Program-made: the position numbers and the translations under genes | Notes under the pieces: model-generated | Databases searched by the model: none | The model's input: only the letters and a program-made list of their open reading frames with translations | What the model was told of the DNA's origin: nothing | Shown: in pieces, positions 1-64,000 of the stretch | Layout of the letters: each line of letters opens with the position of its first letter | Numbering within the stretch: position 1 is the first letter of the stretch | NCBI GenBank assembly: GCA_015061905.1 | Contig: SUVQ01000008.1 | Location: forward strand, 25,867-89,866 | Length of the DNA stretch: 64,000 bases | Reading direction: 5' to 3' | DNA from: Verrucomicrobiota bacterium | Lineage (GTDB): Bacteria > Verrucomicrobiota > Verrucomicrobiia > Opitutales > UBA953

Positions 1-2
1 CC

Positions 3-479
3 GTGCGGGAGCTTTACGCCTACGGTGAAGCGAACGCGTGGAAACCGGAGGTGATTTTTCATGCGTCGGGAACGGGTTCGACGCAGGCGGGAATTTTGGT
101 CGGCTTGGAAAAAGTCGGCTGGGGCGATGTCAAGGTCGTCGGCGTCTCCGTGGCACGCCAGCGTGAACGCGGTGCGCAGGTCGTTGCCGAATTTACGAAA
201 AAGCTCGCTGTTGCGCATGGAATTTCTCCGAAAATTTTTGACGATCGTATTCACTTTTGCGCGGATTTTCTCTGCGGCGGATACGAGAAATTTTCCGGGG
301 AGATGAAAACTTTTTTGGAGAAAACGATACGCGAAACGGGAATCGTTTTCGATACGACGTATTCCGGAAAAGCACTCTTCGGCATGAGCAAGATTCTCGA
401 AGGAAACACCCGCTACGGGAACGTGCTTTTCTGGCACACCGGCGGAATTATGAACTTTTTAGCGAGCGGGGAAAAATAA
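3..479 (+). CDS. PLP-dependent D-cysteine desulfhydrase/ACC deaminase family protein (5' partial)
   Basis: Family motifs ASGTGSTQAG, DTTYSGKA and LFWHTGG; ORF runs off the window start. Confidence 0.85.
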   Translation: MRELYAYGEANAWKPEVIFHASGTGSTQAGILVGLEKVGWGDVKVVGVSVARQRERGAQVVAEFTKKLAVAHGISPKIFDDRIHFCADFLCGGYEKFSGEMKTFLEKTIRETGIVFDTTYSGKALFGMSKILEGNTRYGNVLFWHTGGIMNFLASGEK

Positions 480-480
480 A

Positions 481-1503
481 ATGAACCTACTTTTTTCATG
501 TGCGGGAAGGCGCGCGTATTTATTGAAATATTTTAGAGATGCGCTTGACGAAGTCGGCGGCGGAAAAATTTTTGCGACGGATATGTCGCTTGCCGCACCC
601 GCGCTTGCGTTTGCGGATGTGCCGTTGCGCGTTCCCGCCGTTTATGCGGAAAATTATTTGGATGTGGTCGAAACGATTTGCCGTGAAAACAAAATTGATG
701 CGCTGATTTCTTTGAACGACTTGGAGTTGCCGATTTTGTCGGCGGCGCGGGAACGTTTTGAAAAAATCGGAACTCGGCTTATCGTGTCATCGCCGGAAGT
801 GATTGACGTTTGTTTCGATAAATTAAAAACGGCGCGTTTTGTTGAATCGCTCGGGTTGAATACTCCGAAAACTTTTGTGGTGTTGAGTGATGCGCTTTTA
901 GCACTTGAATGCGGAGAACTTGCGTTCCCGCTCATTTTGAAGCCGCGGTGGGGCTCCGGCTCCATTGGGATTGAGCTCGTGCGCGATAGGGAAGAACTTC
1001 TTGAAACTTATGAAATCGTCCGCCGAAAAGTGGCGCGCTCGATTTTGGCAAAGGCTTCGGCTCCGAAAGAAGAAATCTTGATTCAGGAGGCAATCACCGA
1101 TGCCGAATACGGTTTGGACGTGATGAACGATTTGGGCGGGAACACGATCGCCGTTTCCGTAAAACGAAAACTCGCCATGCGTGCGGGAGAAACGGACAAA
1201 GCGGTTACGGTCGATAAACCGGAAATTCGCGAAATCGGCTTCGCAATCGGACGCGCGTTGCGTCATGTTGCCAACTTGGATTGCGACGTGCTTGAGCGCG
1301 CTGGAAAATATTACGTTTTGGAGCTTAATCCGCGCTTCGGTGGCGGCTATCCGTTTTCGCAGGAAGCAGGTGTGAATCTTCCGTTGGCGATTTTGAAATG
1401 GCTACGCAACGAAAGCGTTCCCGCCGAGTTGCTTGTAGCCAAACCGAATGTCGCTTCGGCAAAATGTGATATTTTAGTTTCTACCCCCCCCCCCCGATCG
1501 TAG
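481..1503 (+). CDS. ATP-grasp protein (carbamoyl-phosphate synthase-like, polysaccharide locus type)
   Basis: N-terminal LFSCAGRR, CFDKLKT, LKPRWGSGS, ELNPRFGGGY. Confidence 0.85.
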   Translation: MNLLFSCAGRRAYLLKYFRDALDEVGGGKIFATDMSLAAPALAFADVPLRVPAVYAENYLDVVETICRENKIDALISLNDLELPILSAARERFEKIGTRLIVSSPEVIDVCFDKLKTARFVESLGLNTPKTFVVLSDALLALECGELAFPLILKPRWGSGSIGIELVRDREELLETYEIVRRKVARSILAKASAPKEEILIQEAITDAEYGLDVMNDLGGNTIAVSVKRKLAMRAGETDKAVTVDKPEIREIGFAIGRALRHVANLDCDVLERAGKYYVLELNPRFGGGYPFSQEAGVNLPLAILKWLRNESVPAELLVAKPNVASAKCDILVSTPPPRS

Positions 1504-1579
1504 GTTAGGGCGAAGCGTTGCGTTCCCGGCGGGTTTTTGTCGCGGGAAAGCGTATTTAAATTTCGGGATACAAAATTGC

Positions 1580-1849
1580 TCAGCGAAAAAGGTCGCTGTG
1601 CGTTCCCGTGCGGTAGAGAAGCAAGGTGCCAGCTTCCGCTTTGTAAATCAAAAGCCAGTCGGGGCGAATGTGGCATTCGCGAAATCCTCGCCAATTTCCG
1701 GCGAGTGCGTGGTCGTGAAATTTTTCGGGAAGCGGAACTTCCCGGGCAAGAAGCGCAATGGCTTCTTGAAGGAGCCCAATTTCAAGCCCTCGTTTTTGAA
1801 TGAGTTTGAAGTCGCGCTTAAAGCGAGTTGCGTATTCGAGAGACAACAT
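1580..1849 (-). CDS. yafQ: Type II toxin, YafQ family mRNA interferase
   Basis: 89 aa; FKRDFK, DHALAGNWRGFRECHIRPDWLLIY, RTGTHSDLF. Confidence 0.92.
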   Translation of the reverse strand: MLSLEYATRFKRDFKLIQKRGLEIGLLQEAIALLAREVPLPEKFHDHALAGNWRGFRECHIRPDWLLIYKAEAGTLLLYRTGTHSDLFR

Positions 1850-1852
1850 ATT

Positions 1853-2149
1853 TTAGGTTTCCAAATCTGCAAAAAGCTCTTCAACGGTGTTGAAGCGCGG
1901 GATGCGTTTTCCGGTTTTGATTTCTTCAAGGAGCCTGTCTCCTTCCGCCATTGCGGCGAGTGTTTCGTCGTTGGGGATTTCCGGGCGCCCGAGGTGCGGC
2001 CGAAAAGGAAGCGCGCGGTCGTTGACGCACTGATGCAGAAACAGGCTCATCGCTTCGGACATCGAGATGCCGAGATGCGCGAAAAGCTTTTCCGCCTGCG
2101 ATTTGATTTTGGGTTCAATGCGAATACTGAGGGTTGCGGTTTTTGCCAT
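1853..2149 (-). CDS. dinJ: Type II antitoxin, RelB/DinJ family
   Basis: LSIRIEPKIK...GISMSEAMSLFL...LPF, PNDETLAAM; 3 nt upstream of the toxin. Confidence 0.9.
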   Translation of the reverse strand: MAKTATLSIRIEPKIKSQAEKLFAHLGISMSEAMSLFLHQCVNDRALPFRPHLGRPEIPNDETLAAMAEGDRLLEEIKTGKRIPRFNTVEELFADLET

Positions 2150-2238
2150 GATAATGTTCTCCGATTTGATTTTTTCGAATTGTCATACAATAAAAAGGCA
2201 ATCGCAACACGTTTTTCATCCAAAGAAAGGCTTTCCGC

Positions 2239-3864
2239 ATGAGCACGAGAACGCGAAATAACATTCTGATTTCTTCGGCGGGAAAGCGCGTTTCGCTGGT
2301 GCGCGAATTTCGGTCCGAGCTCAAAAAAGTTTTTCCGGACGGGAACGTTTTTACCACGGAAATGAATCCGGCAATGTCGCCGGCGGCGCAGGTTTCCGAC
2401 GCTTGTTTTCGCGTGCCGCGCGTGACGGAGCCCGGATACATCGACGCGCTTTTTGAAATCTGCAAGGAAAACGGCGTTCGCATGGTTGTTCCGACGATTG
2501 ATACGGAACTGCTTGTGTTGGCGCGGGCGAAAAAACGCTTCTCCGATGCCGGGATTTTCCTGCTTGTTGCGGATGAAGATTTCATCGCAACGTGCCGTGA
2601 CAAGCGCAATACAGGTGCGTTTTTTGAATCGCGAGGGATTCGCGTTCCCGCGGCGATTGACAAATCTGATCCGACGTTTCCGCTTTTTGCGAAGCCTTAC
2701 GACGGCTCGTTGAGCAAGGATTTGTTTGTCGTGCGTTCCCGTGAAGAGCTGACGCCGGAAATTCTCAATCACCCGAAGCTTATGTTCATGGAATACATCG
2801 ATAAATGTATTTATAAAGAATATACGGTTGATATGTATTTCGGGCGAGACAACAGGATTAAAGCGGCTGTGCCTCGGGAACGCATTGAAATCCGCGCCGG
2901 AGAAATCAACAAAGGTCGCACACGGAAAAATGTAATTGAAAAAACATTACGTGAAAACTTTTCGGAAATTCCGGGTGTCGTCGGTTGTATTTGTGCGCAG
3001 TTTTTTCTGAATGAAAAAACGGGCGACCTTGTCGGGATCGAAATCAATCCGCGCTTCGGCGGCGGCTATCCGCTGAGCTACGGCGCGGGGGCAAACTTCC
3101 CGCAAAATATTGTCCGGGAATATTTGCTCGGCGAAACTGTCGATTTCTCGGACGCGTGGCGCGATAACACGCTGATGCTACGCTATGATGCGGAAATTAT
3201 CGTTCCCGAAAAGCGCCGCGTCGTCGTTTTTGATTTGGATGATACGCTTTGCAAGGAAACGGATTTTCTGAAATCGGCATTTCGCGAAATTGCGGAATCG
3301 TTGGCGGGAACGCGCGGGGACGTTGCCGCCGAAAACCTTTTCGCGGAAATGCTCGAAATGCGTTCCCGCGGAGAAAATGTTTTTGAAAATCTTTCGCAAA
3401 AATACGGTGTTTCCGTGGCAAATTTGCTCGCGCGCTATCGCTCGCATTTTCCGCTCGGAATGAAATTGCCGGCGAAAACGCGCGCGGTTTTGGAAACGCT
3501 GAAAAATTGCGGCGCGGTTCTCGGAATCATCACGGACGGACGCTCGCTGACGCAACGCAACAAGATACGCGCGCTCGGCTTGAGCGAATTTTTTGAAGAC
3601 GCAAACATCGTTGTTTCCGAGGAATTCGGCTCCGAAAAACCGTCGCCGGAAAATTACGAATTTTTTATGAAAAAATACCCGGATGCGGAATTTTGCTACG
3701 TTGGGGACAATCCGAAAAAAGACTTTATCGCGCCGAACGCGCTGGGCTGGGAAACCGTTTGCCTTCTCGACGACGGCGGGAACGTCCACCCGCAGGATTT
3801 TTCCGCCGTTCCCGCCGCCGCGCTCCCGCGCCGAAAAGTGAAAACTCTTTGTATGCTTATTTAA
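2239..3864 (+). CDS. ATP-grasp + HAD-family hydrolase fusion
   Basis: N-terminal ~320 aa ATP-grasp (ISSAGKR, AKPYDGSLS, EINPRFGGGY); C-terminal HAD motifs VFDLDDTL, ITDG, KP, YVGDN. Confidence 0.85.
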   Translation: MSTRTRNNILISSAGKRVSLVREFRSELKKVFPDGNVFTTEMNPAMSPAAQVSDACFRVPRVTEPGYIDALFEICKENGVRMVVPTIDTELLVLARAKKRFSDAGIFLLVADEDFIATCRDKRNTGAFFESRGIRVPAAIDKSDPTFPLFAKPYDGSLSKDLFVVRSREELTPEILNHPKLMFMEYIDKCIYKEYTVDMYFGRDNRIKAAVPRERIEIRAGEINKGRTRKNVIEKTLRENFSEIPGVVGCICAQFFLNEKTGDLVGIEINPRFGGGYPLSYGAGANFPQNIVREYLLGETVDFSDAWRDNTLMLRYDAEIIVPEKRRVVVFDLDDTLCKETDFLKSAFREIAESLAGTRGDVAAENLFAEMLEMRSRGENVFENLSQKYGVSVANLLARYRSHFPLGMKLPAKTRAVLETLKNCGAVLGIITDGRSLTQRNKIRALGLSEFFEDANIVVSEEFGSEKPSPENYEFFMKKYPDAEFCYVGDNPKKDFIAPNALGWETVCLLDDGGNVHPQDFSAVPAAALPRRKVKTLCMLI

Positions 3865-3865
3865 A

Positions 3866-4603
3866 ATGGATAACGATAATCGATATGGAATATTGCAGGC
3901 TCATAAAGAGCTACTGTCGATGATGAAAATTCTTCATGACTTTTTAGAGCGGGAGAAAATCACGTATTGTCTCGCATATGGTTCTCTGCTGGGGGCGGTT
4001 CGACACCAAGGTTTTATTCCTTGGGACGACGATATGGATATCATGGTTGATCGTGAAAATTATGAGAAAATATTAAAAAAGTATCAGTCGTGTCCTGATT
4101 TAAAATTCAGAAAAATCTTATGGACGCTTCGGGTAGAAAAGGCTGGAGATGAAAAATCCCCGATGATTGATATTTTCGTTTGGGACAGTGTTCCGAAGAG
4201 TTCTTTTGTCCGAAATTTTAAGTTGCTTTTGATTAAGATGTTACAAGGAATGCTAAAAGAGAGGCTTTCTTTATCCGGAAATTCTGCAATTTATAAGTTT
4301 TGCTCGGCAGGAACGTTTGTTTTCGGACGTATATTTTCAACGTCAATCAAACAGAAAATGTATGAGGCTGTATCAAGACTTGGTAAGAAAAGCGGGCTAA
4401 TCTGTTCTTATAACTCGGATTTTAGAGATATTCACACCGTGCTTCCGGAGAGCTTAATGAAAGATTTTGTTAAGAAAAAATTTGAAGATGCCGAGTTTTT
4501 TGTGCCACGGGATTATGATCGTTTTTTAACGGCATTCTACGGCGACTATATGGTTTTGCCTGAAGAAAGAAAAAGAGTCCCTGTGCACGGGAACGGCGAG
4601 TAG
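3866..4603 (+). CDS. LicD family phosphotransferase
   Basis: GSLLGAVRHQGFIPWDDDMD and YDRFLTAFYGDYM motifs. Confidence 0.9.
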   Translation: MDNDNRYGILQAHKELLSMMKILHDFLEREKITYCLAYGSLLGAVRHQGFIPWDDDMDIMVDRENYEKILKKYQSCPDLKFRKILWTLRVEKAGDEKSPMIDIFVWDSVPKSSFVRNFKLLLIKMLQGMLKERLSLSGNSAIYKFCSAGTFVFGRIFSTSIKQKMYEAVSRLGKKSGLICSYNSDFRDIHTVLPESLMKDFVKKKFEDAEFFVPRDYDRFLTAFYGDYMVLPEERKRVPVHGNGE

Positions 4604-4701
4604 CTTCTTTTTTACCGAAAATATTTATGCAGAGAGCTTATGCGTTTTGTTCCGTCTGAGAAATAGAAATTTTGAGTATTGAAACTAAAGGCTAAATTTT
4701 T

Positions 4702-5784
4702 ATGAGAAACTTTACAGTAGGTCCTGTGGCAATGAGCCAAGATATATTAAATATTGGTTCGGAGCAGATTCCGTATTTTCGAACGGCGGAATTTTCAAAA
4801 TTAATGCTTGAAAATGAAGCGATGATTTTGCGCGCGGCAAATGCTCCCGCAGGAAGTCGAGCCGTGTTTTTGACCGGCTCGGGGACGTCCGGAATGGAAG
4901 CGGCGGTTGTGAATTTGTTTGATGAGGACGACAAAGTTCTCGTTGTAAACGGCGGGAGCTTTGGGGCGCGTTTTGCAGAGATTTGCCGTGTTTATGGTAT
5001 TCCGCACGAAGAAGTGAAATTGTCTTTCGGAAAACAAATTACAGCGAATGATCTCGCTCCGTTTGAGAATCAGGGTTTTACGGGCTTGTTGGTGAATATT
5101 CACGAAACGTCGACCGGAGTTCTTTATGATGCCGAGTTATTGTCGGCGTTTTGTCGTCGGAATAATCTTAAATTTGTTGTCGATGCGATAAGCTCTTTTC
5201 TTGCGGATCCGTTTGATATGTCGAAGATAGGAGCGGATGCGGTAATTGTCGGTTCTCAGAAAGCGATTGCGCTTCCTCCGGGGATTTCCGCAGTGTTACT
5301 TTCTTCCCGTGCATGCGAAGTGATTTCTTTGCGGGAACGTATTCGGTGTTTCTATCTGAATTTAAAAGAGGCGTTGAAAAACGGAGAGCGTGGGCAAACA
5401 CCGTTCACTCCGGCTGTCGGAATCTTGCTTCAAATGCACAAACGACTCTCGGGAATTTTGACAAGAGGTGTTGCCGAGGAAATTCGAAAAGCAAAGCGAT
5501 TAGCACAATATTTTCGGGAACGTATCGCCAATTTCCCTTTTGTCGTCGCATCCGAATCTTGTTCGAACGCAGTAACGTCGTTGCGCGTTTTGCCGGAATG
5601 TAAAAGTACTGCGTTTGAAATTTTTGAAATCTTGAAAAACGAATACGGGATTTTTGTTTGTCCGAATGGCGGCGACTTGCGCGATAGCGTTTTTCGCGTG
5701 GGGCATATCGGAGAATTAACGGCAAATGATTACGAGGCATTGTTCTCCGCATTTGAGGATATGAAATCTTCCGGAAAAATTTAG
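4702..5784 (+). CDS. Class V PLP-dependent aminotransferase/decarboxylase
   Basis: FTVGP, TGSGTSGMEAA, HETSTG, VDAISS, GSQKAIALPPG, FRVGHIG. Confidence 0.88.
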   Translation: MRNFTVGPVAMSQDILNIGSEQIPYFRTAEFSKLMLENEAMILRAANAPAGSRAVFLTGSGTSGMEAAVVNLFDEDDKVLVVNGGSFGARFAEICRVYGIPHEEVKLSFGKQITANDLAPFENQGFTGLLVNIHETSTGVLYDAELLSAFCRRNNLKFVVDAISSFLADPFDMSKIGADAVIVGSQKAIALPPGISAVLLSSRACEVISLRERIRCFYLNLKEALKNGERGQTPFTPAVGILLQMHKRLSGILTRGVAEEIRKAKRLAQYFRERIANFPFVVASESCSNAVTSLRVLPECKSTAFEIFEILKNEYGIFVCPNGGDLRDSVFRVGHIGELTANDYEALFSAFEDMKSSGKI

Positions 5785-5798
5785 AGCGAGGGAAACAA

Positions 5799-6275
5799 AT
5801 GATTAACGGGAAAACAGTAGTTTATACGTCGGGGACGTTTGATATGTTACATATCAATCATTTGAAAATGATTGAGTACGCGCGTTCGCTTGGAGACATT
5901 TTAATCGTTGGAGTGAATACGGACGAATTGGTTGAAAGCTACAAATCACAGCCGATTATTCCGTTTGAAGAGAGAATCGGCTTGATGAAGGCAATCAAAG
6001 GTCCGGATATTGTGATTCCTCAGCGGAGCTTGGATCACACGGACAAGGTGAAGAAACTTCATTTTGATGTCTTTGTCGTGGGCGACGATTGGGTCGGGAA
6101 ATATGACTACTTAGAAAAACTTGGCGTTACTGTTATTTATTTTCCATATGGGGCGGGAATTAGTTCTTCGTCGCTGAAAAAACGCATTTACGAAAATTAT
6201 GAGAAGTTGAAGGCGAAGGCGGACGGGCATTTGCCGATGGACGCAGATACGGGCGCGGGAACGCAAGGTGCGTAA
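5799..6275 (+). CDS. Cytidylyltransferase (TagD/glycerol-3-phosphate CTase-like)
   Basis: YTSGTFDMLHINH (HxGH-like), VGVNTD, VVGDDW, ISSSSLK. Confidence 0.88.
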   Translation: MINGKTVVYTSGTFDMLHINHLKMIEYARSLGDILIVGVNTDELVESYKSQPIIPFEERIGLMKAIKGPDIVIPQRSLDHTDKVKKLHFDVFVVGDDWVGKYDYLEKLGVTVIYFPYGAGISSSSLKKRIYENYEKLKAKADGHLPMDADTGAGTQGA

Positions 6276-6900: not shown

Positions 6901-7040
6901 AGGCAATTTTAACTGTCGGAAAGGGTTTCGCAAATATCGCAGTAGGAAGAGGCGGAGACTCATCTTGTCGTTCTTGCAGATATTGCTCCGTTTGCGTGCA
7001 GGAAATTTTAGGCAAAATCCGGATTTTTGAAGGGGCGTAA

Positions 7041-7140
7041 TTTAGTAGGTTTTAGGAACTTTTAGGTGGTTTTAGTGGGTTTTAGGTGATTTTTGCTAAA
7101 ACCGCCTAAAACTTGCTAAAACTGTCTAAAACTTGTTAAA
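7041..7140. repeat. 10-bp-periodic inverted array (5x TTTAG units then 5x CTAAA-like units), copy 1
   Basis: tttagtaggt tttaggaact tttaggtggt tttagtgggt tttaggtgat / ttttgctaaa accgcctaaa acttgctaaa actgtctaaa acttgttaaa. Confidence 0.95.
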
Positions 7141-7170
7141 TCTCCTGCAGTAACCCTTATTTGTTTAACT

Positions 7171-8367: not shown

Positions 8368-8441
8368 GGACTTTTAGGTGGTTTTAGTGGGTTTTAGGTG
8401 ATTTTTGCTAAAACCACCTAAAACTTGCTAAAACTGTCTAA
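8361..8441. repeat. 10-bp-periodic inverted array, copy 2 (direct repeat of 7049-7129)
   Basis: 81 bp with 2 mismatches to 7049-7129; contains the ATPase TAG stop (8365-8367). Confidence 0.95.
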
Positions 8442-8544
8442 GCCCTGATAAAAGCGGAAAGTATTTCTCGGTTTGTTCGAGGCGCGATTTTTTTTCGCCG
8501 AGTTTTTAGACAAAAGCGGCGGGGCGTTGCGCTTTCGGGGTGCT

Positions 8545-10134: not shown

Positions 10135-10156
10135 TTCGCGATAAAAGCGAAGCGGA

Positions 10157-27594: not shown

Positions 27595-27630
27595 CGTTCC
27601 CGCGGCTTCGGTCGCGGGAACGTTTTTTTT
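27595..27630 (+). terminator. Rho-independent terminator whose stem is an inverted CGTTCCCG/CGGGAACG pair
   Basis: cgttcccgcg-gc-ttcg-gt-cgcgggaacg followed by a T-run. Confidence 0.85.
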
Positions 27631-32748: not shown

Positions 32749-35394
32749 ATGAAGACCTCAAAATTCTTCTTTTCTACCCTCATTGCAGCCTCCGCAATGA
32801 CCGCCACCGCGTATGCGGGATATGTATGGAATGGAGGCGAAACAATCACGCAGGATCTCTGGCAAGCTCAAGATAGTTGGTCTTTGACTGATAGCTCTAC
32901 TTGGACCGGTTCAGGGACCGGTCCGGGAACACCAGACTCTAACATGTGGGAACTGATTAGCATTTCTAACTCCAAGGGTGAAATTAGCGTGTTGGAGGGC
33001 TGGAATCTTCGACTTTCTCTTGTCGGGAGTGAGCTTACGGTTGATTCGTTGAAAAAATTCCAAGGCGGCTCCTGTTCCGTTAGTTTGGATGCGGACTCCG
33101 TCCTTACAATCAGCAATTTTAATGGAGGAAATGACGGCGGTTCAATTACCTTAGATAACGAAGGCATTTTTAATCTTGCTTACGGCAAAAGCCAAGGGGG
33201 AGAAGGATTTGTTGCAGATCTTGGAGAGACGGGGATTATGAAACTCACGTCTGTGAGTGGTTCGTACACGGCGAAGATTAAGAGCCTTTCTGCGGTGTTG
33301 GGGACAACAGAAGAAACTGAAACTAAAGGGGGAGTTGTTCTTTCGAATTATCGTAATTTGATTACGCTTGGCTCAGGAATGTCGTTTGATAACACCGTAA
33401 CAACATTTTCTTTCACAAATGCCGATGGCGCAGATATTACGGTGAGGGATTTATCGGAGATTTTTGAAGCCGGAATTTCTAAAAACGACGACGGAACCTA
33501 CGGAATGAAGGTCGAAGAAGGATGGTTTCTACTAAAAGACACCTCTGGCTATTCCGTGGGGTATACAGCAGGCGATTCGGTACTCGCTTTGATTTGGAAC
33601 GGTGTAGATGGATCTACATGGAATACGACGGATGCTAATTGGACAGAATCCGAAGGAGGGGAATCTAAGGTTTTTGCTAATGGCGGGAACGTTGTCTTTG
33701 ATAAAGATGCAAATGTTGTGGTAGATTCCGCAGGTGTATCTACTACTTGTGTCGGCGTGTTTGGCGGTACGGTAACGTTGTCTGGCGGTAAAGTAACGAC
33801 TCAATATATTTCTATCGAAGAAGGTGCTACATTAAAACTTGGTGGTGAAGAAGTCGTTTCCGGAACGATTGTTGTGAAAACCGGAGGAACGTTTGACTTG
33901 AATGGTTCCTCTAACGGATTTTCGTATGCAGGAGGATCTGTTGTTCTTGACGGAGGATTTTTGACAAATACGGGAGACTCTGTTGGAATCGGGGACAGGC
34001 AATTGTATACGCTTGTTTTGACGGCTGATTCGACGATTGGCGGTGGAAACGAGTTTGGTATTGTCGGGAGTGGTCATGGGGTAACGACTGCAAGCCTCGG
34101 AGGTTTCACACTGACAAAAGTCGGTTCAGGAACGGTATTATTTGCGAACAATACACTTTCAAACGGCGTTTTGGATGTCGCAGAAGGTGTCATCTCCGAT
34201 GGAGGAAAAGGGCTGACGATTGCGAACGATGCGACGTTGAAAGTGTCTGGTGGCTCCCTGAATATTACCGGTGGTTTCACGAATAACGGAACGTTGGAGT
34301 TTGCTGCGGATTATACCTATTCAGGATCAACACTTTCCGGTGGAACCCTTAAGGTTACTGGTGGAACGGCAGAGATTGCCGGAACAGCAAGTGTCAAAGT
34401 TGTGAATATCTCCGGCGGAACATTGAATGTCGGAGACGGTGGTATTCTAACGGTTAATGATAACACTAGCCTGTCCGGTGGGGATGCCGTAATCGGAACG
34501 ATTAATGTTCTGGCAGGCGGTACTGCCAAATTTTCTGGGCACGACCTCATGGGTTGGAGCCGACGAGACAATGTGATTGCTAGCTTGACTGGTTCTGAAG
34601 CGAAGACAGCGACGCTCATGCTCAACGATACGGGAAATCTTACGTTCACTTCTGATATTGAGCTGAACGGGAATGCGCGCGTTACGACAGATCGAGCCGA
34701 AGGTTCGATGTTGAATACCTTGGGCGGTCGGTTTATTGCAACCGGAACAAACAATGAAATTTCATCTATTGAGATTCAATTAAGAAATGCAGACCTCGAA
34801 GTGAAGGTTACTGACCGAGGTGATGAATTGAAAATCTCCAGCGCGATTGTAAATCACGCCGAAGGTTCTTCCGGCTTGAAAAAGACTGGCAGCGGGACAT
34901 TGGTTTTGTCCGGAGAAAATACATATACGCGTGCAACGGTCGTTGAAGCGGGAACGTTGGTTGCGGCAAGCACAAGTGCGCTTGGTAGCGGAACCGTTTC
35001 TGTGGCGAATGGTGCTAAGTTGCAGATTTCGGTTGAAAACGTTGATGCGGGAACAATCAATTTGGCTTCCGGCGCAACGCTTGTTGTCGACTTGGCTGAT
35101 TTTGCGGATGTGCTTGATGCAGACAATGAAATGCTGACGATTCTGACGGGAACGACTTTGTCCTTTGGAGATGTCGCTGCGGCATCGGACACGCTGACGA
35201 CGGAGCAATTGGGTTATTTGTCGGTTACGGACAGCTCCGGGGCATTTTCCAAATATGTAAATAAGGAATGGTCGTATGCCGGAAATACGCTTTCGCTCAC
35301 ACTTACGATTCCCGAGCCGTCGGCGTTCGGATTGTTGGCGGGCGTGGGCGCGTTGGCGTTGGTGGCGTCGCGTCGTCGGCGTTCCCGTCGCTAA
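32749..35394 (+). CDS. Large PEP-CTERM protein with autotransporter-associated beta-strand repeats
   Basis: Signal peptide; LTKVGSGT and LKKTGSGTLVLSGENTYTRATVVEAGTL; C-terminal IPEPSAFGLLAGVGALALVASRRRRSRR. Confidence 0.93.
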   Translation: MKTSKFFFSTLIAASAMTATAYAGYVWNGGETITQDLWQAQDSWSLTDSSTWTGSGTGPGTPDSNMWELISISNSKGEISVLEGWNLRLSLVGSELTVDSLKKFQGGSCSVSLDADSVLTISNFNGGNDGGSITLDNEGIFNLAYGKSQGGEGFVADLGETGIMKLTSVSGSYTAKIKSLSAVLGTTEETETKGGVVLSNYRNLITLGSGMSFDNTVTTFSFTNADGADITVRDLSEIFEAGISKNDDGTYGMKVEEGWFLLKDTSGYSVGYTAGDSVLALIWNGVDGSTWNTTDANWTESEGGESKVFANGGNVVFDKDANVVVDSAGVSTTCVGVFGGTVTLSGGKVTTQYISIEEGATLKLGGEEVVSGTIVVKTGGTFDLNGSSNGFSYAGGSVVLDGGFLTNTGDSVGIGDRQLYTLVLTADSTIGGGNEFGIVGSGHGVTTASLGGFTLTKVGSGTVLFANNTLSNGVLDVAEGVISDGGKGLTIANDATLKVSGGSLNITGGFTNNGTLEFAADYTYSGSTLSGGTLKVTGGTAEIAGTASVKVVNISGGTLNVGDGGILTVNDNTSLSGGDAVIGTINVLAGGTAKFSGHDLMGWSRRDNVIASLTGSEAKTATLMLNDTGNLTFTSDIELNGNARVTTDRAEGSMLNTLGGRFIATGTNNEISSIEIQLRNADLEVKVTDRGDELKISSAIVNHAEGSSGLKKTGSGTLVLSGENTYTRATVVEAGTLVAASTSALGSGTVSVANGAKLQISVENVDAGTINLASGATLVVDLADFADVLDADNEMLTILTGTTLSFGDVAAASDTLTTEQLGYLSVTDSSGAFSKYVNKEWSYAGNTLSLTLTIPEPSAFGLLAGVGALALVASRRRRSRR

Positions 35395-36329: not shown

Positions 36330-39300
36330 ATGGCAAAAAAAGCTCCGGCCGAAAAAAGCACGAAATTCGTTTACGAATTCGGCAAAAAGACTGACGGGAA
36401 CGCGCAAATGCGCAATTTACTTGGCGGGAAAGGCGCCAACCTCGCTGAAATGGCGCGCATCGGCTTGCCGGTGCCTCCGGGTTTCACAATCAGCACGGAA
36501 GTCTGCACGTATTATTACGAAAACAAAAAGACTTATCCGAAAACGCTCATGGCGGACGTGCGCGATGCCGTTGCCAACATTGAAAAGCAGCTCGGCAAAA
36601 AATTCGGCGATGCTACCGGGTTCCCGCTGCTTGTTGCCGTGCGTTCCGGTGCCCGCGAGTCGATGCCGGGCATGATGGACACGATTTTGAACCTCGGTTT
36701 GAACGACGAAACCGTTGAGGCTCTTGCCCGCGTTACGAACAACGAGCGTTTTGCTTGGGACTGCTACCGTCGCTTCGTCCAGATGTATGGCGACGTCGTT
36801 CTCGGTGTGCAAAAACTTCCGAACGAAGATCACGAACCGTTTGAAAGCGTTATCGAAGCCGTTAAAACGGAAATGCTCGAAAACCCGAACGCGAGCGATA
36901 CGGAACTCGGCGTTGTCGAACTCCGCGAACTCGTTTTCCGCTTCAAAAAATTAATCAAAGACCGCACGGGAAGTGATTTCCCGACGGATCCGTGGAAGCA
37001 ACTTGAAGGCGCAATCGGTGCGGTTTTCGGCTCGTGGATGAATGAGCGTGCGATTATTTACCGCCAGAAATATCACATTCCGTCCAGCTGGGGCACGGCG
37101 GTCAATGTTCAGTCCATGGTTTTTGGGAACACGGGCGACAAGTCCGGCTCCGGCGTGGCGTTCACGCGCGACCCGGCGAGCGGAGAAAAAGTTTTCTACG
37201 GAGAATTTTTGATGAATGCGCAGGGCGAAGACGTGGTTGCCGGCGTGCGCACGCCCGATCCCGTCGCGCATCTTGCGAGTGTAATGCCTTCCGCGCACAA
37301 GCAGTTGCTCGGCATTTGCAAAACGCTGGAAAATCACTTCCGCGACATGCAGGACTTTGAATTTACGATTGAAGATTCCAAGGTTTTCATGCTTCAAACC
37401 CGCAACGGCAAGCGCACGGGCGTGGCAGCGATTCGTATTGCCTGCGAAATGGTTCGCGAAAAGCTTATTGACTGGAAAACGGCAGTGCGCCGCGTTCCCG
37501 CCGATCAGCTCGACCAGGTTTTGGCTCCCGTGTTTGACCGCAAGGCACTCAAGGGCGCAACGTCTATCGCGCACGGGCTTCCCGCCGGACCGGGTGCTGC
37601 CTCCGGAAAAGTTTATTTCAATGCGGAGCGCGCGGAAGCGGCTGCCGCCAACGGCGAAAAAGTTTTGCTCGTTCGCCTCGAAACCTCGCCGGAAGATTTG
37701 CGCGGCATGATCGCGGCGGAAGGGATTTTGACGGCGCGCGGAGGCGTTTCCTCGCACGCGGCACTTGTTGCCCGCCAAATGGGTAAGGTTTGCGTCAGCG
37801 GCGCGTCTGCAATCGATATCGACTACGCGAACCGCGCGCTTTCCGTCGGCGACGTTTCCGTCAAGGAAGGCGAATGGATGAGTATCGACGGCACGACCGG
37901 AGATGTTTATCTCGGGCAAATCGCCACGGCTCCGAGCGACGTTATTCTCGGTGTCGTTCGCGGGAACGAAGAGGCGAAAAAATCCGCCACTTACAAAAAT
38001 TTCGCTCAGTTGATGGCGTGGTGTAAAAAGGTAACGCGCCTCGGTGTCCGCACGAACGCGGACGCACCGTCGCAAACGGCTGTCGCGGTTGCTTTCGGCG
38101 CGCAGGGGATCGGTCTTACCCGCACGGAACACATGTTCTTCGAGGGCGATCGTATCGACTCCGTGCGCGAGATGATTCTCGCGACGGATTTGGAAGGGCG
38201 TCGCACCGCCGTCAACAAGTTGCTTCCGTATCAGCGCGGCGACTTTGAAGGCATTTTCCGTGAACTGAAAGGCTTGCCGGCAACGATTCGCCTGCTCGAC
38301 CCGCCGTTGCACGAATTCCTTCCGCAAACGAAAGAGCAGCAGCTTGACCTTGCGAAAAAGCTCGGCGTTCCCGTCGAACACATTCAGCGTCGCGTAGCCG
38401 AGCTTCATGAATTCAATCCGATGCTCGGGCATCGCGGTTGCCGCCTCGGAATTTCCTATCCGGAAATTACGGAAATGCAGGCGCGCGCGATTTTTGAAGC
38501 GGCGGCAAATTGCATTAAGGAAAAAATTCGCGTTGCTCCGGAAGTGATGATCCCGCTCGTCGGTTTTGCGGCGGAATTTAAAAATCAGGCGGCAGTCGTT
38601 CGCCGCGTCGCCGCCGAAGTCATGGCGGAAAAGAAGGTGAAAATTTCTTACAAGGTCGGCACGATGATTGAAATTCCGCGCGCTTGCGCGACGGCGGACA
38701 AGATTGCCGAAGATGCGGAATTTTTCTCCTTCGGAACGAACGACCTGACGCAAACCTCGCTCGGTATGAGCCGCGACGACTCCGGCTCGTTCCTCGGTGA
38801 TTACACGCGCTTGGAAATCGTGAAGCGCAATCCGTTTGCGTCTATCGACCAGGAAGGCGTCGGCGCGATGATGAAGCTCGGCGTTTCGCTCGGGCGCCAA
38901 TCGCGTCCGGACATCAAGCTTGGTATTTGCGGCGAACACGGCGGCGATCCCGAATCCGTGAAATTCTGCCATCGCATCGGTTTAACCTATGTCAGTTGCT
39001 CTCCTTACCGTGTGCCGACGGCTCGCCTCGCGGCGGCTCAGGCGGCGATTGAGGAGGAAATTTCGTTAACCCAACCCCAAACTAATACTATGGCTACAGC
39101 AAAAACCACGAAGAAACCGGCTGCCAAAGCGGCTCCGGCGAAAAAAGCTCCGGCTAAGAAGGCGGCTCCCGCCAAGAAACCGGCAGCGAAGAAGGCGGCT
39201 CCGGCGAAGAAACCGGCTCCTGCCAAAAAACCGGTTGCCAAAAAGGCTCCTGCCAAAGCGGCTCCGGCGAAGAAAGCTCCGGCTAAGAAAGCGGCTCCCG

Positions 39301-39440
39301 CCAAGAAGCCGGTAGCGAAGAAAGCGGCGCCTGCGAAAAAAGCTCCGGCTAAAAAAGCAGTGGCTGTAAAGAAAGCTCCCGCTAAGGCGGCTCCGGCGAA
39401 AAAGGCTTGCTGCAAAAAATCCTGCGCAAAGAAAAAATAA
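36330..39440 (+). CDS. ppdK: Pyruvate phosphate dikinase with in-frame C-terminal Lys/Ala/Pro-rich histone H1-like extension
   Basis: [53 protein letters not shown]; then ~116 aa of PAKKA repeats from an in-frame ATG at 39090. Confidence 0.93.
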
Positions 39441-39455: not shown

Positions 39456-39493
39456 AAAAAACGGCTTCGGGAACGTTCCCGGAGCCGTTTTTT
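39456..39493. terminator. Bidirectional terminator centred on the palindrome CGGGAACGTTCCCG
   Basis: aaaaaacggcttcgggaac|gttcccggagccgtttttt. Confidence 0.85.
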
Positions 39494-42984: not shown

Positions 42985-43416
42985 ATGAAAACAACTTTAG
43001 CGAAGACATCCAACGCCGCCGATAAGACTTGGTTCGTAGTGGACGCAACCGACCAGCCGGTCGGTCGCCTTGCCGTCAAAATCGCAACGATCCTGCGCGG
43101 ACGTCATAAGCCGACTTACACGCCCCACGTTGACACGGGCGATTTCGTCGTCGTCATCAACGCCGACAAAGCGAAATTCACGGGCAACAAAGAAACCGAC
43201 AAGACCTATATGTTCTACACGGGCTGGGTCGGAACCGCTTATCGCCGCACGGCTGAATTTATGCGCGGACACAAACCGGCGTTCATTATTGAACACGCGG
43301 TAAAAGGTATGCTCCCGAAAAACCGCCTCGCTAATGCGATGATGAAGAAACTCAAAGTTTATGCCGGAGCCGAGCACCCGCACGCCGCGCAAAATCCGGT
43401 TGAGTATAAAATCTAA
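42985..43416 (+). CDS. rplM: 50S ribosomal protein L13
   Basis: WFVVDA, GRLA, HKPTYTPHVDTGD, KGMLPKN. Confidence 0.99.
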   Translation: MKTTLAKTSNAADKTWFVVDATDQPVGRLAVKIATILRGRHKPTYTPHVDTGDFVVVINADKAKFTGNKETDKTYMFYTGWVGTAYRRTAEFMRGHKPAFIIEHAVKGMLPKNRLANAMMKKLKVYAGAEHPHAAQNPVEYKI

Positions 43417-43434
43417 TCTCAGTTTTTTCAGAAT

Positions 43435-43833
43435 ATGAATAAAGACGTTCCTGTTTTTGTCGCCGTCGGGCGCCGTAAAACTTCCACCGCACGCGTTCGC
43501 GTTGCCAGCGGCTCCGGCAAGATTCTGGTTAACGACAAGCCGGTTGAAGAATACTGCTTCACGGAAGCACTCGCCAAAACGGCGACGCTTCCGGTTTCGG
43601 TTGCCGGGCTCGAAGGCTCTCTCGATATTGAAGTTCGCGTGAACGGCGGCGGTTGCAACAGCCAAGCGGGTGCTATCTCCCACGGCGTTGCTCGCGCGAT
43701 TGAAAAATACAATCCGGAGCTTCGCACGGTTTTGAAAAAAGCCGGGTTGCTCACACGCGACGGTCGTTCCAAAGAACGTAAGAAAAGCGGTCAGCCGGGC
43801 GCGCGCAAGCGCTTCCAGTTCTCGAAACGTTAA
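43435..43833 (+). CDS. rpsI: 30S ribosomal protein S9
   Basis: GRRKTS, GGGxxxQAGAI, ERKKSGQPGARKRFQFSKR. Confidence 0.99.
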   Translation: MNKDVPVFVAVGRRKTSTARVRVASGSGKILVNDKPVEEYCFTEALAKTATLPVSVAGLEGSLDIEVRVNGGGCNSQAGAISHGVARAIEKYNPELRTVLKKAGLLTRDGRSKERKKSGQPGARKRFQFSKR

Positions 43834-45814: not shown

Positions 45815-45857
45815 AAAAAAAAACGTTCCCGCGACTCTCGCCACGGGAACGCTTTTG
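45815..45857 (-). terminator. Terminator after gap built from an inverted motif pair
   Basis: A-run-cgttcccg (45824)...cgggaacg (45844). Confidence 0.75.
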
Positions 45858-62068: not shown

Positions 62069-62108
62069 CGTTCCCGCGGGGAGATTCCTCGCGGGAACGT
62101 TTTTTTTT
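62069..62108 (+). terminator. Terminator after sodA built from an inverted motif pair
   Basis: cgttcccgcg-gggagattcct-cgcgggaacg + T-run. Confidence 0.85.
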
Positions 62109-62120
62109 ATGTGAATTTCG

Positions 62121-62291
62121 CGCGAGAAAATAAAAACTTTCCTCCTCGCGCAAAGACGCAAAACTGCAAAGCCCTTTGTTTTAACCAAAACAAACCAACC
62201 TAATCTTAAAAAATCTTCGCGCCTTCGCGTCTTCGCGGCTTCGCGCGAAAACAAAAACTTCTCCTCGCGCAAAGACGCAAAAATCGCAAAG
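62121..62291. repeat. Left tandem repeat flank of GxxExxY gene
   Basis: 62142-62221 nearly identical to 62864-62942; 62243-62282 matches 62846-62885. Confidence 0.92.
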
Positions 62292-62292
62292 T

Positions 62293-62682
62293 TCATTCCT
62301 CCAATTCGTTCACAAGGCGAGAAACCGCCTCTTTAAAATACCCTTCACCGAAATTGATTAGAAAACCAAGCTTTAAGCCTGTTAGTTTCAAATAAGTTTG
62401 AAGCTGTTTTTTGTGAGAACGATTTATTTTTTCCACCGATTTAAGTTCGACGATTACACGATTCTCAACAATCAAATCCGCGCGAAACGCATTTTCAAAG
62501 CGCAATTCTTCAAATTCAATTGCAACAGGAACTTGCCGCTCCACCTGAAGCCCTTGTGCTTTAAGGCGTTCATACAAAACCGCTTCATAAACGTTTTCCA
62601 AAAGCCCGACTCCCAATCCCCGGTGGATATCAAATGCCGTATTTACGATTATTTTTCCGATTTCGTTTTCTGTTTTATTCAT
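62293..62682 (-). CDS. GxxExxY family protein (PD-(D/E)XK-like fold)
   Basis: GLLENVY motif, RADLIVE..ELKSVE, QLQTYLK, GFLINFG. Confidence 0.93.
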   Translation of the reverse strand: MNKTENEIGKIIVNTAFDIHRGLGVGLLENVYEAVLYERLKAQGLQVERQVPVAIEFEELRFENAFRADLIVENRVIVELKSVEKINRSHKKQLQTYLKLTGLKLGFLINFGEGYFKEAVSRLVNELEE

Positions 62683-62754
62683 AGCGTAAAGATGAGACGA
62701 AAAGGAGTAGACACGTTCCCGTATCCTTTCGCGAGTCCTTTTTTAAGTTTTCAC

Positions 62755-62955
62755 ATCGCGCAAAGACGCTAAAACGCAAAGCATTTTATTTTAACCAAAA
62801 CAAACTAACCCAACCTCAAAAAAAACTTCGCGACTTCGCGGCTTAGCGCGAAAACAAAAACTTCTCCTCGCGCAAAGACGCAAAACTGCAAAGCCCTTTG
62901 TTTTAACCAAAACAAACCAACCAATCTCAAAAAATCTTCGCGGCTTTGCGCGAGA
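62755..62955. repeat. Right tandem repeat flank of GxxExxY gene (~2 units of ~110 bp)
   Basis: Each unit: tcgcgcaaagacgc...ttaaccaaaacaaac...aaaaaa(t/c)cttcgcg. Confidence 0.92.
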
Positions 62956-63074
62956 TTTTTCGGAACGTTCTCCCTTCGCGCGCAAGAGGGTGCACCTTTA
63001 AGAATCCGTGTTTATCCGTGAAAATCCGTGGTTTTTGTTGCGGATAAATTTCCGCAGAAGTAAAATGTTTCGCG

Positions 63075-64000
63075 ATGGAAGAAATTCTCGTTATTAAACC
63101 CTCTTCACTCGGCGATATTATCCACGCGCTTGTCGTGGTGGAAACTCTGCGTCGCCGGCGCGGGAACGCAGTGCGTGTAACCTGGCTTGTCCGTGATATT
63201 TTTGCGCAGGTTTTGGAAGTTTGTCCGACGGTGGACCGCGTTATTACTTACAATCGAGGCGGAGGCGTGAAGGAGATTTTTCGCGTGGGAAAACAGCTCC
63301 GGCGGGAACGCTTTGATTTGGTGTTGGACTTGCAGGGACTGGCGCGCTCGGCGTTTTGGTCACTTTGCGCTCGCGCGCCCCGGAAAATCGGGCGCGGCGA
63401 CGGACGGGAATTTTCCCGATTCGCATTCCGGGAACTTGCGCCCGCTCCGGCTAAAGGTTTTAAAAAGGCGCACGCCATCGACATTCTTTTGCAGTTCTTA
63501 AAACCGCTCGGGCTTGAGCCGGAAGTTTGCGGGAACGTGGAATTTTCACGTGCGCAGCTTTCGCCGAAAATTCGTGAAATCCTCGCCCCGGACGGCGGGG
63601 AATTTGCGGCTCCGATTTTGCTTTTCCCGGATTCCCGCCGCGCGGAAAAGGAGTGGAAGGGTTTTAAGGCGTTGACGGCGTTGCTGTTGGCAAAATCTCA
63701 GGGCACGCCGATTGTTTGGGTCGGCGGCGGGGATCTCGCTCCCGACGCTTCTTGGGACGCCGTTTACACGGATTTTTATTCGCTGATGGGAAAAACTTCC
63801 CTCATTGACGTGCTGGCATTGATTTCGCGCGCAAAATTTTGCGTAACGAACGACAGCGGACCGATGCACATTGCGGCGGCGATGGGCGTTCCCGTGCTCG
63901 GCGTGTTTGGTCCGACTTCGCCGGAACTCTACGGACCGTTCCCGCCGTCTTCCCCGAAAAACCAAGTGATTTGCGCTCCCGGCGGCGATCTTTCCAAGTT
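63075..64000 (+). CDS. Glycosyltransferase family 9 (heptosyltransferase-like), 3' partial
   Basis: Hand translation MEEILVIKPSSLGDIIH, FDLVLDLQGLARSA, TNDSGPMHIAAAMG..FGPT; no stop before the window end. Confidence 0.92.
   Translation, partial: MEEILVIKPSSLGDIIHALVVVETLRRRRGNAVRVTWLVRDIFAQVLEVCPTVDRVITYNRGGGVKEIFRVGKQLRRERFDLVLDLQGLARSAFWSLCARAPRKIGRGDGREFSRFAFRELAPAPAKGFKKAHAIDILLQFLKPLGLEPEVCGNVEFSRAQLSPKIREILAPDGGEFAAPILLFPDSRRAEKEWKGFKALTALLLAKSQGTPIVWVGGGDLAPDASWDAVYTDFYSLMGKTSLIDVLALISRAKFCVTNDSGPMHIAAAMGVPVLGVFGPTSPELYGPFPPSSPKNQVICAPGGDLSK

What the first reader, a model, noticed from the sequence alone, without database searches (positions are those of the whole stretch)
1..64000. 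Hyper-abundant octamer CGGGAACG/CGTTCCCG: candidate DNA uptake sequence or HIP1-like signal
Seen: a hand scan finds about 200 exact copies in 64 kb, about 3 per kb (examples 67, 923, 9182, 28443, 39468). Both orientations occur at similar frequency, mostly inside CDSs, and the context is often GCGGGAACGC. Rough expectation at an eyeballed ~53% GC is 2-3 copies, so enrichment is about 80-fold. Known: Neisseria DUS and Pasteurellaceae USS, and cyanobacterial HIP1, show this genome-wide, two-strand, in-gene pattern. Chi sites are instead strand-polarised. Inference: this could be a self-DNA uptake tag for natural transformation, or a methylation/recombination signal. I know of no such signal described in Verrucomicrobiota.
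Basis: partly seen in the sequence, partly recalled or inferred. Interest (0 to 1): 0.93.

Follow-up and report, generated by a model that had tools for sequence, protein, structure and literature searches.

The report
Genome-wide CGGGAACG word in Spyradosoma
An uncultured gut bacterium (Candidatus Spyradosoma, Verrucomicrobiota) and most of its genus carry the 8-letter DNA word CGGGAACG about 3-4.5 times per kilobase. It looks like the self-DNA uptake tags of Neisseria and Haemophilus, but it is denser than any I found reported, and none of the reader proteins I searched for (ComP, Vsr, a shared methyltransferase) goes with it.

Summary
CGGGAACG/CGTTCCCG occurs 204 times in the window and 6,550 times in the 2.08-Mb genome (3.15 per kb), where it is the commonest 8-mer. 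The two strands carry it equally, it lies in all six reading frames, and it is slightly denser between genes.

Codon-aware nulls do not remove the excess: 5,582 copies in genes against 583 after synonymous shuffling. Of all peptide contexts that could encode the word, 79% do, and those peptides are themselves 1.7-3.9 times over-represented. The force therefore acts on DNA and has reshaped proteins.

The signal is a sharp 8-mer, is not polarised by replication, and shows no helical phasing. Inverted pairs form about 100 or more bidirectional terminator hairpins.

The word is restricted to one genus: 15 of 19 species have 2.6-4.5 per kb, and 12 other families of the order are at background. Two separate lineages have fallen to 0.3-0.7 per kb. 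In the one lineage where sites could be compared, they drift at the background rate, whereas high-count species conserve them 2-3 times better.

The type IV pilus, PilT, ComEC and DprA are present, but they are also intact in the low-count species. No methyltransferase, Vsr or ComP homologue tracks the word.

Best reading, at about 45% confidence: a DNA-uptake-sequence-like self tag with an unknown reader. Biased repair or a per-site function remain open.

The parts
1..64000 (.). Field of 204 exact copies of CGGGAACG (97 on the + strand, 107 on the - strand). This is part of a genome-wide set of 6,550 copies.
27595..27622 (.). Inverted pair CGTTCCCG-CGGCTTCGGTCG-CGGGAACG followed by a T-run. 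It is an intrinsic-terminator-like hairpin and a member of a repeated hairpin family.
   Evidence: (C14:53460).
45824..45851 (.). Inverted pair CGTTCCCG-N12-CGGGAACG with an A-run upstream and a T-rich stretch downstream. It looks like a bidirectional terminator hairpin.
   Evidence: (C14:71689).
62069..62099 (.). Inverted pair (- then +) with 15 nt between the arms.
   Evidence: positions 62069- and 62092+.
39468..39481 (.). Two overlapping copies forming the palindrome CGGGAACGTTCCCG.
   Evidence: 39468+ and 39474-.
36330..39440 (+). Pyruvate phosphate dikinase gene. All 4 of its 4 permissive peptide sites carry the motif. It was used as the marker for the genus tree and for site conservation.
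32749..35394 (+). Large motif-poor gene: only 4 of 16 permissive sites are occupied. It is probably younger or foreign DNA.
42985..43833 (+). Their proteins offer only 0 and 1 permissive peptides, so there is almost no place to write the word.

Best explanation
CGGGAACG is a lineage-specific 'self' word of the genus Candidatus Spyradosoma. A DNA-level directional force, not coding or RNA function, keeps it at near-saturating density. The most likely force is the one known for DNA uptake sequences (Neisseria DUS, Pasteurellaceae USS). In that model a component of the type IV pilus and ComEC uptake route binds this 8-mer preferentially. Fragments of conspecific DNA that carry more copies are then taken up and recombined more often, and new copies that arise by point mutation spread by molecular drive. 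Copies settle wherever they are tolerated: at synonymous sites, in loosely constrained peptides, between genes, and as paired arms of terminator hairpins. Two lineages (G001/G002/G013, and G014) lost the sequence-specific reader but kept general competence genes. In the one lineage tested (G001/G002/G013) the copies now change at the background rate. Shown here: the abundance, the DNA-level nature, the sharp specificity, the lack of polarity, the restriction to one genus, active maintenance in high-count species, its loss in the tested lineage, and the presence of uptake machinery. Inferred: that uptake bias is the force, and that a dedicated reader exists.
For: - **Abundance.** 6,550 copies make it the top 8-mer, 27-87 times over expectation.
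- **All frames.** All six frames are used, and intergenic density (3.8 per kb) exceeds genic density (3.05 per kb).
- **Saturation.** 79% of synonymously permissive peptide sites are occupied, and the permissive peptides are 1.7-3.9 times over-represented.
- **Sharp word.** The logo is a sharp 8-mer.
- **Mismatch profile.** (O-E)/E is 86, 2.7, 0.66, 0.27 and 0.06 for 0-4 mismatches. Published values are 183, 2.0, 0.22, 0.07, 0.02 for H. influenzae and 392, 4.8, 0.65, 0.34, 0.19 for N. gonorrhoeae.
- **Mutation types.** Transitions and transversions away from the word are equally rare at positions 1, 2 and 5. This fits a binding specificity, not a deamination repair.
- **Terminators.** There are 141 intergenic inverted pairs, with a peak at N12, flanked by A-runs and T-runs. 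This is the classic habit of DUS and USS.
- **No polarity.** 52:48 and 46:54 by GC-skew sign.
- **Genus restriction.** Only this genus carries it.
- **Maintenance.** Sites are conserved 2-3 times better than background between high-count species, and only at background level within the G001/G002/G013 clade. In trees, each low-count lineage is paired with a high-count sister species.
- **Uptake machinery.** ComEC, DprA, two PilB, PilT, PilC, PilM, a secretin and six prepilins are present.
- **Foreign DNA.** Motif-free stretches are low-GC islands.
- **Recent literature.** HIP1 is now argued to be an uptake or transformation signal (PMC13756078).
Against: - Density (3.15 per kb here, up to about 4.5 per kb in G003) exceeds the maximum reported for HIP1 (2.73 per kb; PMC5861425). 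From my own recollection it is several times the roughly 1 per kb of DUS and USS.
- Spacing is Poisson-like (CV 1.18), not more even than random. A permissive site 8-30 bp from another copy is still 72% occupied. This fits uptake only if uptake rises about linearly with copy number.
- No ComP_DUS domain was found in any of 19 genomes. That search had no positive control. None was found in the six pilins either.
- No canonical ComEA was found.
- Every competence or pilus gene tested is intact in the low-count species. No gene loss explains the loss of the motif.
- The organism is uncultured, and no uptake or transformation data exist.
Confidence: 0.45

Rival explanations
1. Sequence-directed biased repair or gene conversion ('genome writing'). 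An intracellular enzyme recognises near-cognate or heteroduplex sites and resolves them towards CGGGAACG, site by site and independent of DNA uptake. The enzyme was lost in the two low-count lineages.
For: The behaviour is per site: spacing is Poisson-like, and occupancy is 72-84% whatever the distance to the nearest neighbour. 79% of permissive sites are saturated in all six frames. A prophage carries the word at about half the host's saturation. All tested competence genes are retained in the lineages that lost the motif, so the lost factor may have nothing to do with uptake.
Against: No Vsr was found in 18 of 19 genomes, and no methyltransferase co-varies with the motif. One-mismatch variants are not depleted (O/E 0.7-5.3), although substrates of a converting enzyme should be. 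The bias is not specific to one mutation type. I know of no enzyme that writes an asymmetric 8-mer. Xu et al. argued against biased repair for HIP1 because its sites are conserved.
Confidence: 0.2
2. A functional genomic signal selected copy by copy. Examples are the binding word of an abundant nucleoid or chromosome-organising protein, or a 'self' mark read by a defence or recombination system that spares DNA rich in the word.
For: Sites are conserved between species beyond background, which is the argument used for HIP1. My rough estimate of the scaled advantage needed per site is S of about 4. It follows from 79% occupancy against about 8% in the synonymous shuffle (583 of 7,072 sites). Weak selection can supply that in large populations (inference). 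Foreign islands lack the word, and a prophage has acquired it.
Against: Spacing shows no 10-11-bp phasing, only the 3-bp coding period. Two lineages dispensed with the word while keeping the genes tested here. No candidate reader was identified. Periodicity at the 10-90-kb scale could not be tested on 17 contigs.
Confidence: 0.2
3. A Chi-like recombination hotspot read by an AddAB or RecBCD-type enzyme.
For: The word is 8 nt, asymmetric and over-represented. An ORF of about 1,070-1,165 aa with weak PD-(D/E)XK nuclease-domain matches, possibly AddAB/RecB-like, is present in most of the genus.
Against: There is no replichore polarity. The density and the 27-87-fold excess go far beyond any Chi I know of. 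The nuclease-domain ORF is also present in the low-count species.
Confidence: 0.05

Closest known systems
DNA uptake sequences: Neisseriaceae DUS (10-12-mer read by the minor pilin ComP) and Pasteurellaceae USS (9-mer core)
   Same: It is a short asymmetric word shared across a lineage and equal on both strands. It lies in genes in every frame and between genes. Inverted pairs serve as terminator stems. There is a steep drop from 0 to 1 mismatch followed by a gradual decline. It is rare in foreign islands. A type IV pilus with PilT, ComEC and DprA is present.
   Different: It is in another phylum. It is 8 bp with almost no flanking information. It is about 3-4.5 per kb, against roughly 1 per kb for DUS and USS as I recall. 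Spacing is Poisson-like. No ComP_DUS homologue and no canonical ComEA were detected. No 'dialects' were seen: the low-count congeners have no replacement word. Uptake is untested.
HIP1 (GCGATCGC) of cyanobacteria
   Same: It is a sharp octamer at a frequency of the order of 1 per kb with a 16-317-fold excess. Sites are conserved between genomes. Some lineages inside the clade have lost it. The function is unresolved, and HIP1 was recently proposed to be an uptake or transformation signal.
   Different: HIP1 is a palindrome that contains methyltransferase sites (DmtA, DmtC). This word is asymmetric, and no methyltransferase tracks it. Its density exceeds the HIP1 maximum of 2.73 per kb. HIP1 spans a phylum, whereas this word spans one genus.
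Chi and KOPS-type polarised words
   Same: They are 8-mers that are over-represented and read by DNA-processing machines.
   Different: Those words are strongly co-oriented with replication and far less dense. This word is unpolarised.
Other hyper-abundant octamers noted in this scan (GTGATACA, GTATGCCG, GCCTAACG, CGNCATAC)
   Same: The phenomenology is the same: lineage-specific, asymmetric, about 8 nt, in all frames.
   Different: Those are reported at about 0.8-1.6 per kb, and this one is 2-4 times denser. Here two within-genus losses give a natural contrast. These are unchecked AI notes.

Membership tests
DNA uptake sequence (DUS/USS) systems | Genome-wide over-representation of one short word, on both strands, in and between genes | tested here: met
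DNA uptake sequence (DUS/USS) systems | The word is shared by related species and absent from more distant relatives | tested here: met
   15 of 19 congeners have 2.6-4.5 per kb. 12 other families of the order are at background.
DNA uptake sequence (DUS/USS) systems | Frequent inverted pairs acting as transcription terminators | tested here: met
   141 intergenic pairs with A-run and T-run flanks.
DNA uptake sequence (DUS/USS) systems | Competence machinery: type IV pilus with PilT and secretin, ComEC, DprA and ComEA | tested here: inconclusive
   PilB (two copies), PilT, PilC, PilM, a secretin, prepilins, ComEC and DprA were found. ComEA was not found with HHH_3.
DNA uptake sequence (DUS/USS) systems | Preferential uptake or transformation by DNA that carries the word | not testable with these tools
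   The genus is uncultured, and this needs wet-lab assays.
Neisseria-type DUS (ComP-read) | A minor pilin with the ComP_DUS domain | tested here: not met
   PF16732 was absent from all 19 genomes, in a search that had no positive control. The six prepilins match only N_methyl. PDB searches of two prepilins (pil137, pil235) match only the N-terminal helix of major pilins.
HIP1-type motif | A palindromic octamer | tested here: not met
   CGGGAACG is not its own reverse complement.
HIP1-type motif | Cognate orphan methyltransferases that co-occur with the motif | tested here: not met
   C5, N6_N4 and N6 methyltransferases are sporadic. G018 (7,023 copies) has none of those tested. Dam-type (PF02086) was not tested.
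VSP-type biased repair | A Vsr endonuclease together with a C5 methyltransferase | tested here: not met
   Vsr occurs only in G010, and C5 methyltransferases are absent from 8 high-count genomes.
Chi/KOPS | Strong co-orientation with replication | tested here: not met
   52:48 and 46:54 by GC-skew sign. The correlation is explained by gene orientation.

The most novel reading that the evidence does not exclude
The word is not an uptake tag at all. Instead it is the footprint of an unknown intracellular system that recognises an asymmetric 8-mer and writes or preserves it site by site (sequence-directed gene conversion or repair). The system is encoded by a gene present in 15 Spyradosoma species and lost twice. 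That would be a new class of genome-shaping machinery. It might also explain HIP1 and the other lineage-specific octamers seen in this scan.
Probability: 0.2. Interest if true: 0.9.

Novelty: new variant of a known kind. Interest (0 to 1): 0.72.

Why it matters
As far as I know, sequence-specific 'self-DNA' words are mechanistically understood only in two proteobacterial families, and HIP1 remains unresolved after 30 years.

This is a third kind of case. It lies in Verrucomicrobiota, in an animal-gut genus. Its density is the highest I found reported, and the word has visibly rewritten both codon choice and protein sequence.

Its special value is a built-in natural experiment. Two lineages inside the genus have fallen to low density, and the one tested no longer maintains the word, while each has a sister species that still does. 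Comparing the complete gene sets of the 15 high-count and 4 low-count species should therefore point directly to the protein that reads the word. That would make the question of what drives such words directly testable.

It also matters in practice:
- The word marks native against foreign DNA in these MAGs.
- It could improve binning and detection of horizontal transfer.
- It would be the first thing to add to DNA intended to transform these bacteria.

Tried and rejected
1. **Coding or codon artefact: rejected.** All six frames are used, the word is denser between genes, and it survives synonymous and codon-order shuffles.
2. **Repeat or mobile element: rejected.** Only 8 bp are conserved, with weak preferences at the two adjacent positions (-1 and +1).
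3. **Chi/KOPS: rejected** for lack of polarity.
4. **Helical phasing: none.** No 10-11-bp periodicity was found.
5. **Dialect switch in low-count congeners: rejected.** G001, G013 and G014 have no replacement word.
6. **Loss of competence genes in low-count species: rejected** for PilC, PilT, DprA, ComEC, the secretin and seven prepilin queries. I tested these with concatenated-protein searches.
7. **Cognate methyltransferase, Vsr or an AddAB-like nuclease: no co-variation**.
8. **McrBC-like pair** deleted at the syntenic site in G013: sporadic in the genus, so not the driver.
9. **G007-specific ORFs** near the pilus locus: absent from G000, so not the driver.
11. **Polarised gain and loss counts between G000 and G016: too few events.** I found 4 losses and 1 gain.
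12. **Viral-contig scan.** Most hits were chance hairpins, and one real prophage was found.
14. **Literature.** No paper mentions this word or any uptake sequence in Verrucomicrobia.


Full report
**Observation.** The octamer CGGGAACG (reverse complement CGTTCCCG) occurs 204 times in the 64-kb window. Dinucleotide-preserving shuffles give 6.4 +/- 2.4, with a maximum of 13. The window is C14:25867-89866 of a 2.08-Mb, 17-contig, 52%-GC assembly.

Genome-wide there are 6,550 copies, 3,233 forward and 3,317 reverse. That is 3.15 per kb on every contig (2.4-3.8 per kb), and it is the most frequent 8-mer of the genome. Expected numbers are 75 from base composition, 210-640 from Markov orders 1-3, and 239 from order 3 with the motif masked.

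**The signal is in the DNA, not in coding.** I used my own crude gene calls (1,606 genes, 88% coding).
- The word is slightly denser between genes (3.8 per kb) than within them (3.05 per kb), and it uses all six frames.
- Shuffling synonymous codons within each gene leaves 583 copies, and shuffling codon order leaves 174. The observed number in genes is 5,582.
- Of 7,072 peptide contexts that could encode the word without changing the protein (RER, [SPTA]GT, xGN[VADEG], RSR, [SPTA]FP, xVP[VADEG]), 5,582 (79%) do so. The range is 72-85% in each frame.
- Those peptides are themselves 1.7-3.9 times more common than amino-acid composition predicts.

The force therefore overrides codon choice and has changed protein sequences. 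The conserved genes in the window that lack the word (for example 10157-11047 and 42985-43416, with 43435-43833 offering a single site) have no, or almost no, permissive peptide.

**Anatomy.**
- The logo is a sharp 8-mer. The only flanking information is G at -1 (60%) and C at +1 (53%).
- One-mismatch variants sit at 0.7-5.3 times a masked Markov expectation. They are closest to background at positions 1, 2 and 5, for transitions and transversions alike, and most enriched at positions 3, 4, 6 and 8.
- By mismatch load, (O-E)/E is 86, 2.7, 0.66, 0.27, 0.06 and -0.06. This is nearly the profile published for the uptake sequences of H. influenzae (183, 2.0, 0.22, 0.07, 0.02) and N. gonorrhoeae (392, 4.8, 0.65, 0.34, 0.19) (PMC1939737).
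- Spacing is close to Poisson: mean 317, median 222 against 220 expected, CV 1.18. The only period is 3 bp for same-strand pairs, and there is no helical phasing.
- Strand bias is 52:48 and 46:54 in bins of positive and negative GC skew, and it follows gene orientation. The word is therefore not Chi-like or KOPS-like.
- Occupancy of permissive sites is 72% even when another copy lies 8-30 bp away, and 84% at 200-400 bp. Copies therefore behave almost independently.

**Terminators.** The orientation CGTTCCCG...CGGGAACG is twice as common at short range as the opposite one. It has a sharp peak at 12 nt between the arms. I found 197 such pairs, 141 of them intergenic, typically with an A-run upstream and a T-run downstream. 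These look like bidirectional intrinsic terminators. A sub-family shares the loop CGGCTTCGGTCG (a UUCG tetraloop) and shares flanks. Window examples are 27595-27622 and 45824-45851.

**Where it is missing.** Fourteen motif-free stretches of 3 kb or more (63 kb in total) are nearly all 39-47% GC, which marks likely foreign islands. The gene at 32749-35394 has 4 of 16 permissive sites occupied.

**Who has it.** PPDK places the genome in Candidatus Spyradosoma (class Opitutia, Verrucomicrobiota), a genus of uncultured animal-gut bacteria.
- Of 19 species genomes, 15 carry 5,100-7,800 copies (2.6-4.5 per kb).
- G001, G002 and G013 carry about 1,350 (0.65 per kb).
- G014 carries 552 (0.29 per kb).
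- Twelve other families of the same order are at the level of the reversed-word control.
- The low-count genomes have no replacement word. CGGGAACG is still the top 8-mer in G001 and in 1.44 Mb of G013.

**Two reductions, and the force behind the word.** A PPDK tree and a concatenated PilB/PilT/PilC tree place G001/G002/G013 as sister to high-count G007, inside a clade with high-count G004 and G018. They place G014 with high-count G008. Both roots are midpoint roots, and the G014-G008 pairing has only moderate support (90/92). On that basis the low state arose twice from a high state.

Site conservation in alignable DNA:

| Comparison | Motif sites conserved | Expected for an average 8-mer |
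|---|---|---|
| G000 to G016 (both high) | 77% | 57% |
| G000 to G010 (both high) | 64% | 29% |
| G000 to G011 (both high) | 53% | 21% |
| G010 to G011 (both high) | 83% | 40% |
| G007 to G004/G018 (all high) | 56-67% | 18% |
| Within the low clade | 50-62% | 45-51% |
| G007 sites in G013 (high to low) | 17% | 21% |
| Residual G013 sites in G007 (low to high) | 78% | 21% |

One high-count pair went the other way in one direction: G018 sites were conserved in G004 at 62% against 68% expected (10 of 16), while G004 sites in G018 gave 91% against 69% (10 of 11). The numbers in both directions are small.

An active force therefore maintains the word in most of the genus. It has been switched off in the G001/G002/G013 lineage, where copies change at about the background rate. 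G014 was not tested in this way.

G000 has ComEC, DprA, two PilB, PilT, PilC, a pilM-?-?-secretin operon just left of the window, and six prepilins.
- All of those tested are intact, and about as divergent from G000, in the low-count species as in their high-count sisters.
- No ComP_DUS domain was found in any genome, although that search had no positive control.
- No canonical ComEA was found.
- G000's seven DNA methyltransferases are sporadic in the genus. G018, with 7,023 copies, has no C5 methyltransferase and no homologue of the six others that were used as queries.
- Vsr occurs only in G010.
- A large ORF with weak PD-(D/E)XK nuclease-domain matches, possibly AddAB/RecB-like, is present in both high-count and low-count species.
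Syntenic deletions found in the held part (a McrBC-like pair and a CBS-DHH pyrophosphatase) are not plausible drivers, and the McrBC-like pair, the only one checked, is sporadic in the genus.

**Phage.** One IMG/VR contig (L290) is a prophage next to a Spyradosoma gene. Its terminase, portal and tail genes carry the word at 1.6 per kb, and 13 of 24 permissive sites are occupied. G000's own prophage-like region has 2.4 per kb. Because these elements are integrated, they do not separate uptake from intracellular processes.

**Interpretation.**
- The only mechanistically established precedent for an unpolarised, asymmetric word that lies in all frames and is reused in terminators is the DNA uptake sequence. 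The mismatch profile and the presence of a retractile type IV pilus with ComEC and DprA fit it. I rate it the best explanation, at about 0.45.
- The extreme density and the near-independence of neighbouring copies fit uptake only if uptake probability rises roughly linearly with copy number per fragment (inference).
- They fit a per-site conversion process or copy-by-copy selection just as well. I give each of those about 0.2.
- A rough calculation uses 79% occupancy against about 8% under synonymous shuffling. It gives a scaled advantage of about 4 per copy. Drive, biased conversion or very weak selection could each supply that (inference).
- Methylation-linked (HIP1-style) and VSP-style mechanisms are not supported.
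- Chi-like function is essentially excluded.

**Comparison and novelty.**
- I found no paper that mentions this word or an uptake sequence in Verrucomicrobia.
- HIP1 reaches at most 2.73 per kb, and this word reaches 3.15 per kb here and about 4.5 per kb in G003.
- Earlier AI notes of this scan report other lineage-specific octamers at about 1 per kb in several phyla. The phenomenon may therefore be widespread, and the mechanism is unknown everywhere.

**Limits.**
- Gene calls are my own heuristic.
- The conservation and gain/loss samples are small: tens of sites, from two loci.
- All genomes are MAGs.
- Uptake, binding and methylation were not testable.

Noticed in passing
whole genome G000 (window included): Four-base palindromes are strongly avoided: GGCC O/E 0.07, GTAC 0.09, CTAG 0.15 and GATC 0.45. 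This suggests long-standing restriction pressure. It also explains why the variant CGGGTACG occurs only 5 times.
   Followed up: partly
window 27595-27622 and about 15 other places in G000: A family of near-identical terminator hairpins, CGTTCCCG-CGGCTTCGGTCG-CGGGAACG (UUCG tetraloop), shares flanks (TATTAAGTGTGG upstream, a T-run plus CGCGC downstream). It looks like a small repeated element built on the motif.
   Followed up: partly
G000 C10:128525-131105 (outside the window): A McrB-like GTPase and a McrC-like nuclease form a pair, judged from sequence motifs by eye. The pair is missing at the syntenic place in G013 and sporadic in the genus, being present in G000, G011, G017, G004, G008 and G015.
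   Followed up: partly
L290 (IMGVR_UViG_3300019820_000004) 2000-12294: This is a prophage with terminase, portal, baseplate and tail genes, next to a gene 92% identical to G000 C3:117798-119504. The phage genes carry the motif at about 1.6 per kb.
   Followed up: yes
L315 (IMG/VR contig, 33% GC) 6272-8881: Twelve copies of CGGGAACG, eleven of them on one strand, cluster within 2.6 kb of an AT-rich viral contig where 0.01 are expected. It is probably a local repeat unrelated to Spyradosoma.
   Followed up: no
G000 C14:103683-135105 (right of the window): Four of the 14 motif-free stretches lie in this part of the contig, including the two longest (8.9 and 7.1 kb). They total about 24 kb at 44-47% GC. 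The 8.9-kb stretch overlaps the start of an 856-aa HsdM-like type I methyltransferase gene, so this is probably a foreign island.
   Followed up: partly
window 36330-39440 and its orthologues: The PPDK reading frame runs on to 1,028-1,208 aa in every species that has the gene, about 130-300 aa beyond the usual end. G008, G009 and G014 lack PPDK.
   Followed up: no
G000 C14:14136-21025 (just left of the window): A PilM (580 aa, with a long C-terminal extension beyond the PilM_2 domain), two proteins without Pfam matches, and a 963-aa secretin form a pilMNOPQ-like operon. A second secretin of about 790 aa exists in 7 of 19 species, including all four low-count ones.
   Followed up: partly
G013 (1.44 Mb held): AT-rich words CTTTAATCTTT and AAGCTTAAAG are among the top 10-12-mers of this low-motif species. 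They are probably tandem or dispersed repeats.
   Followed up: no
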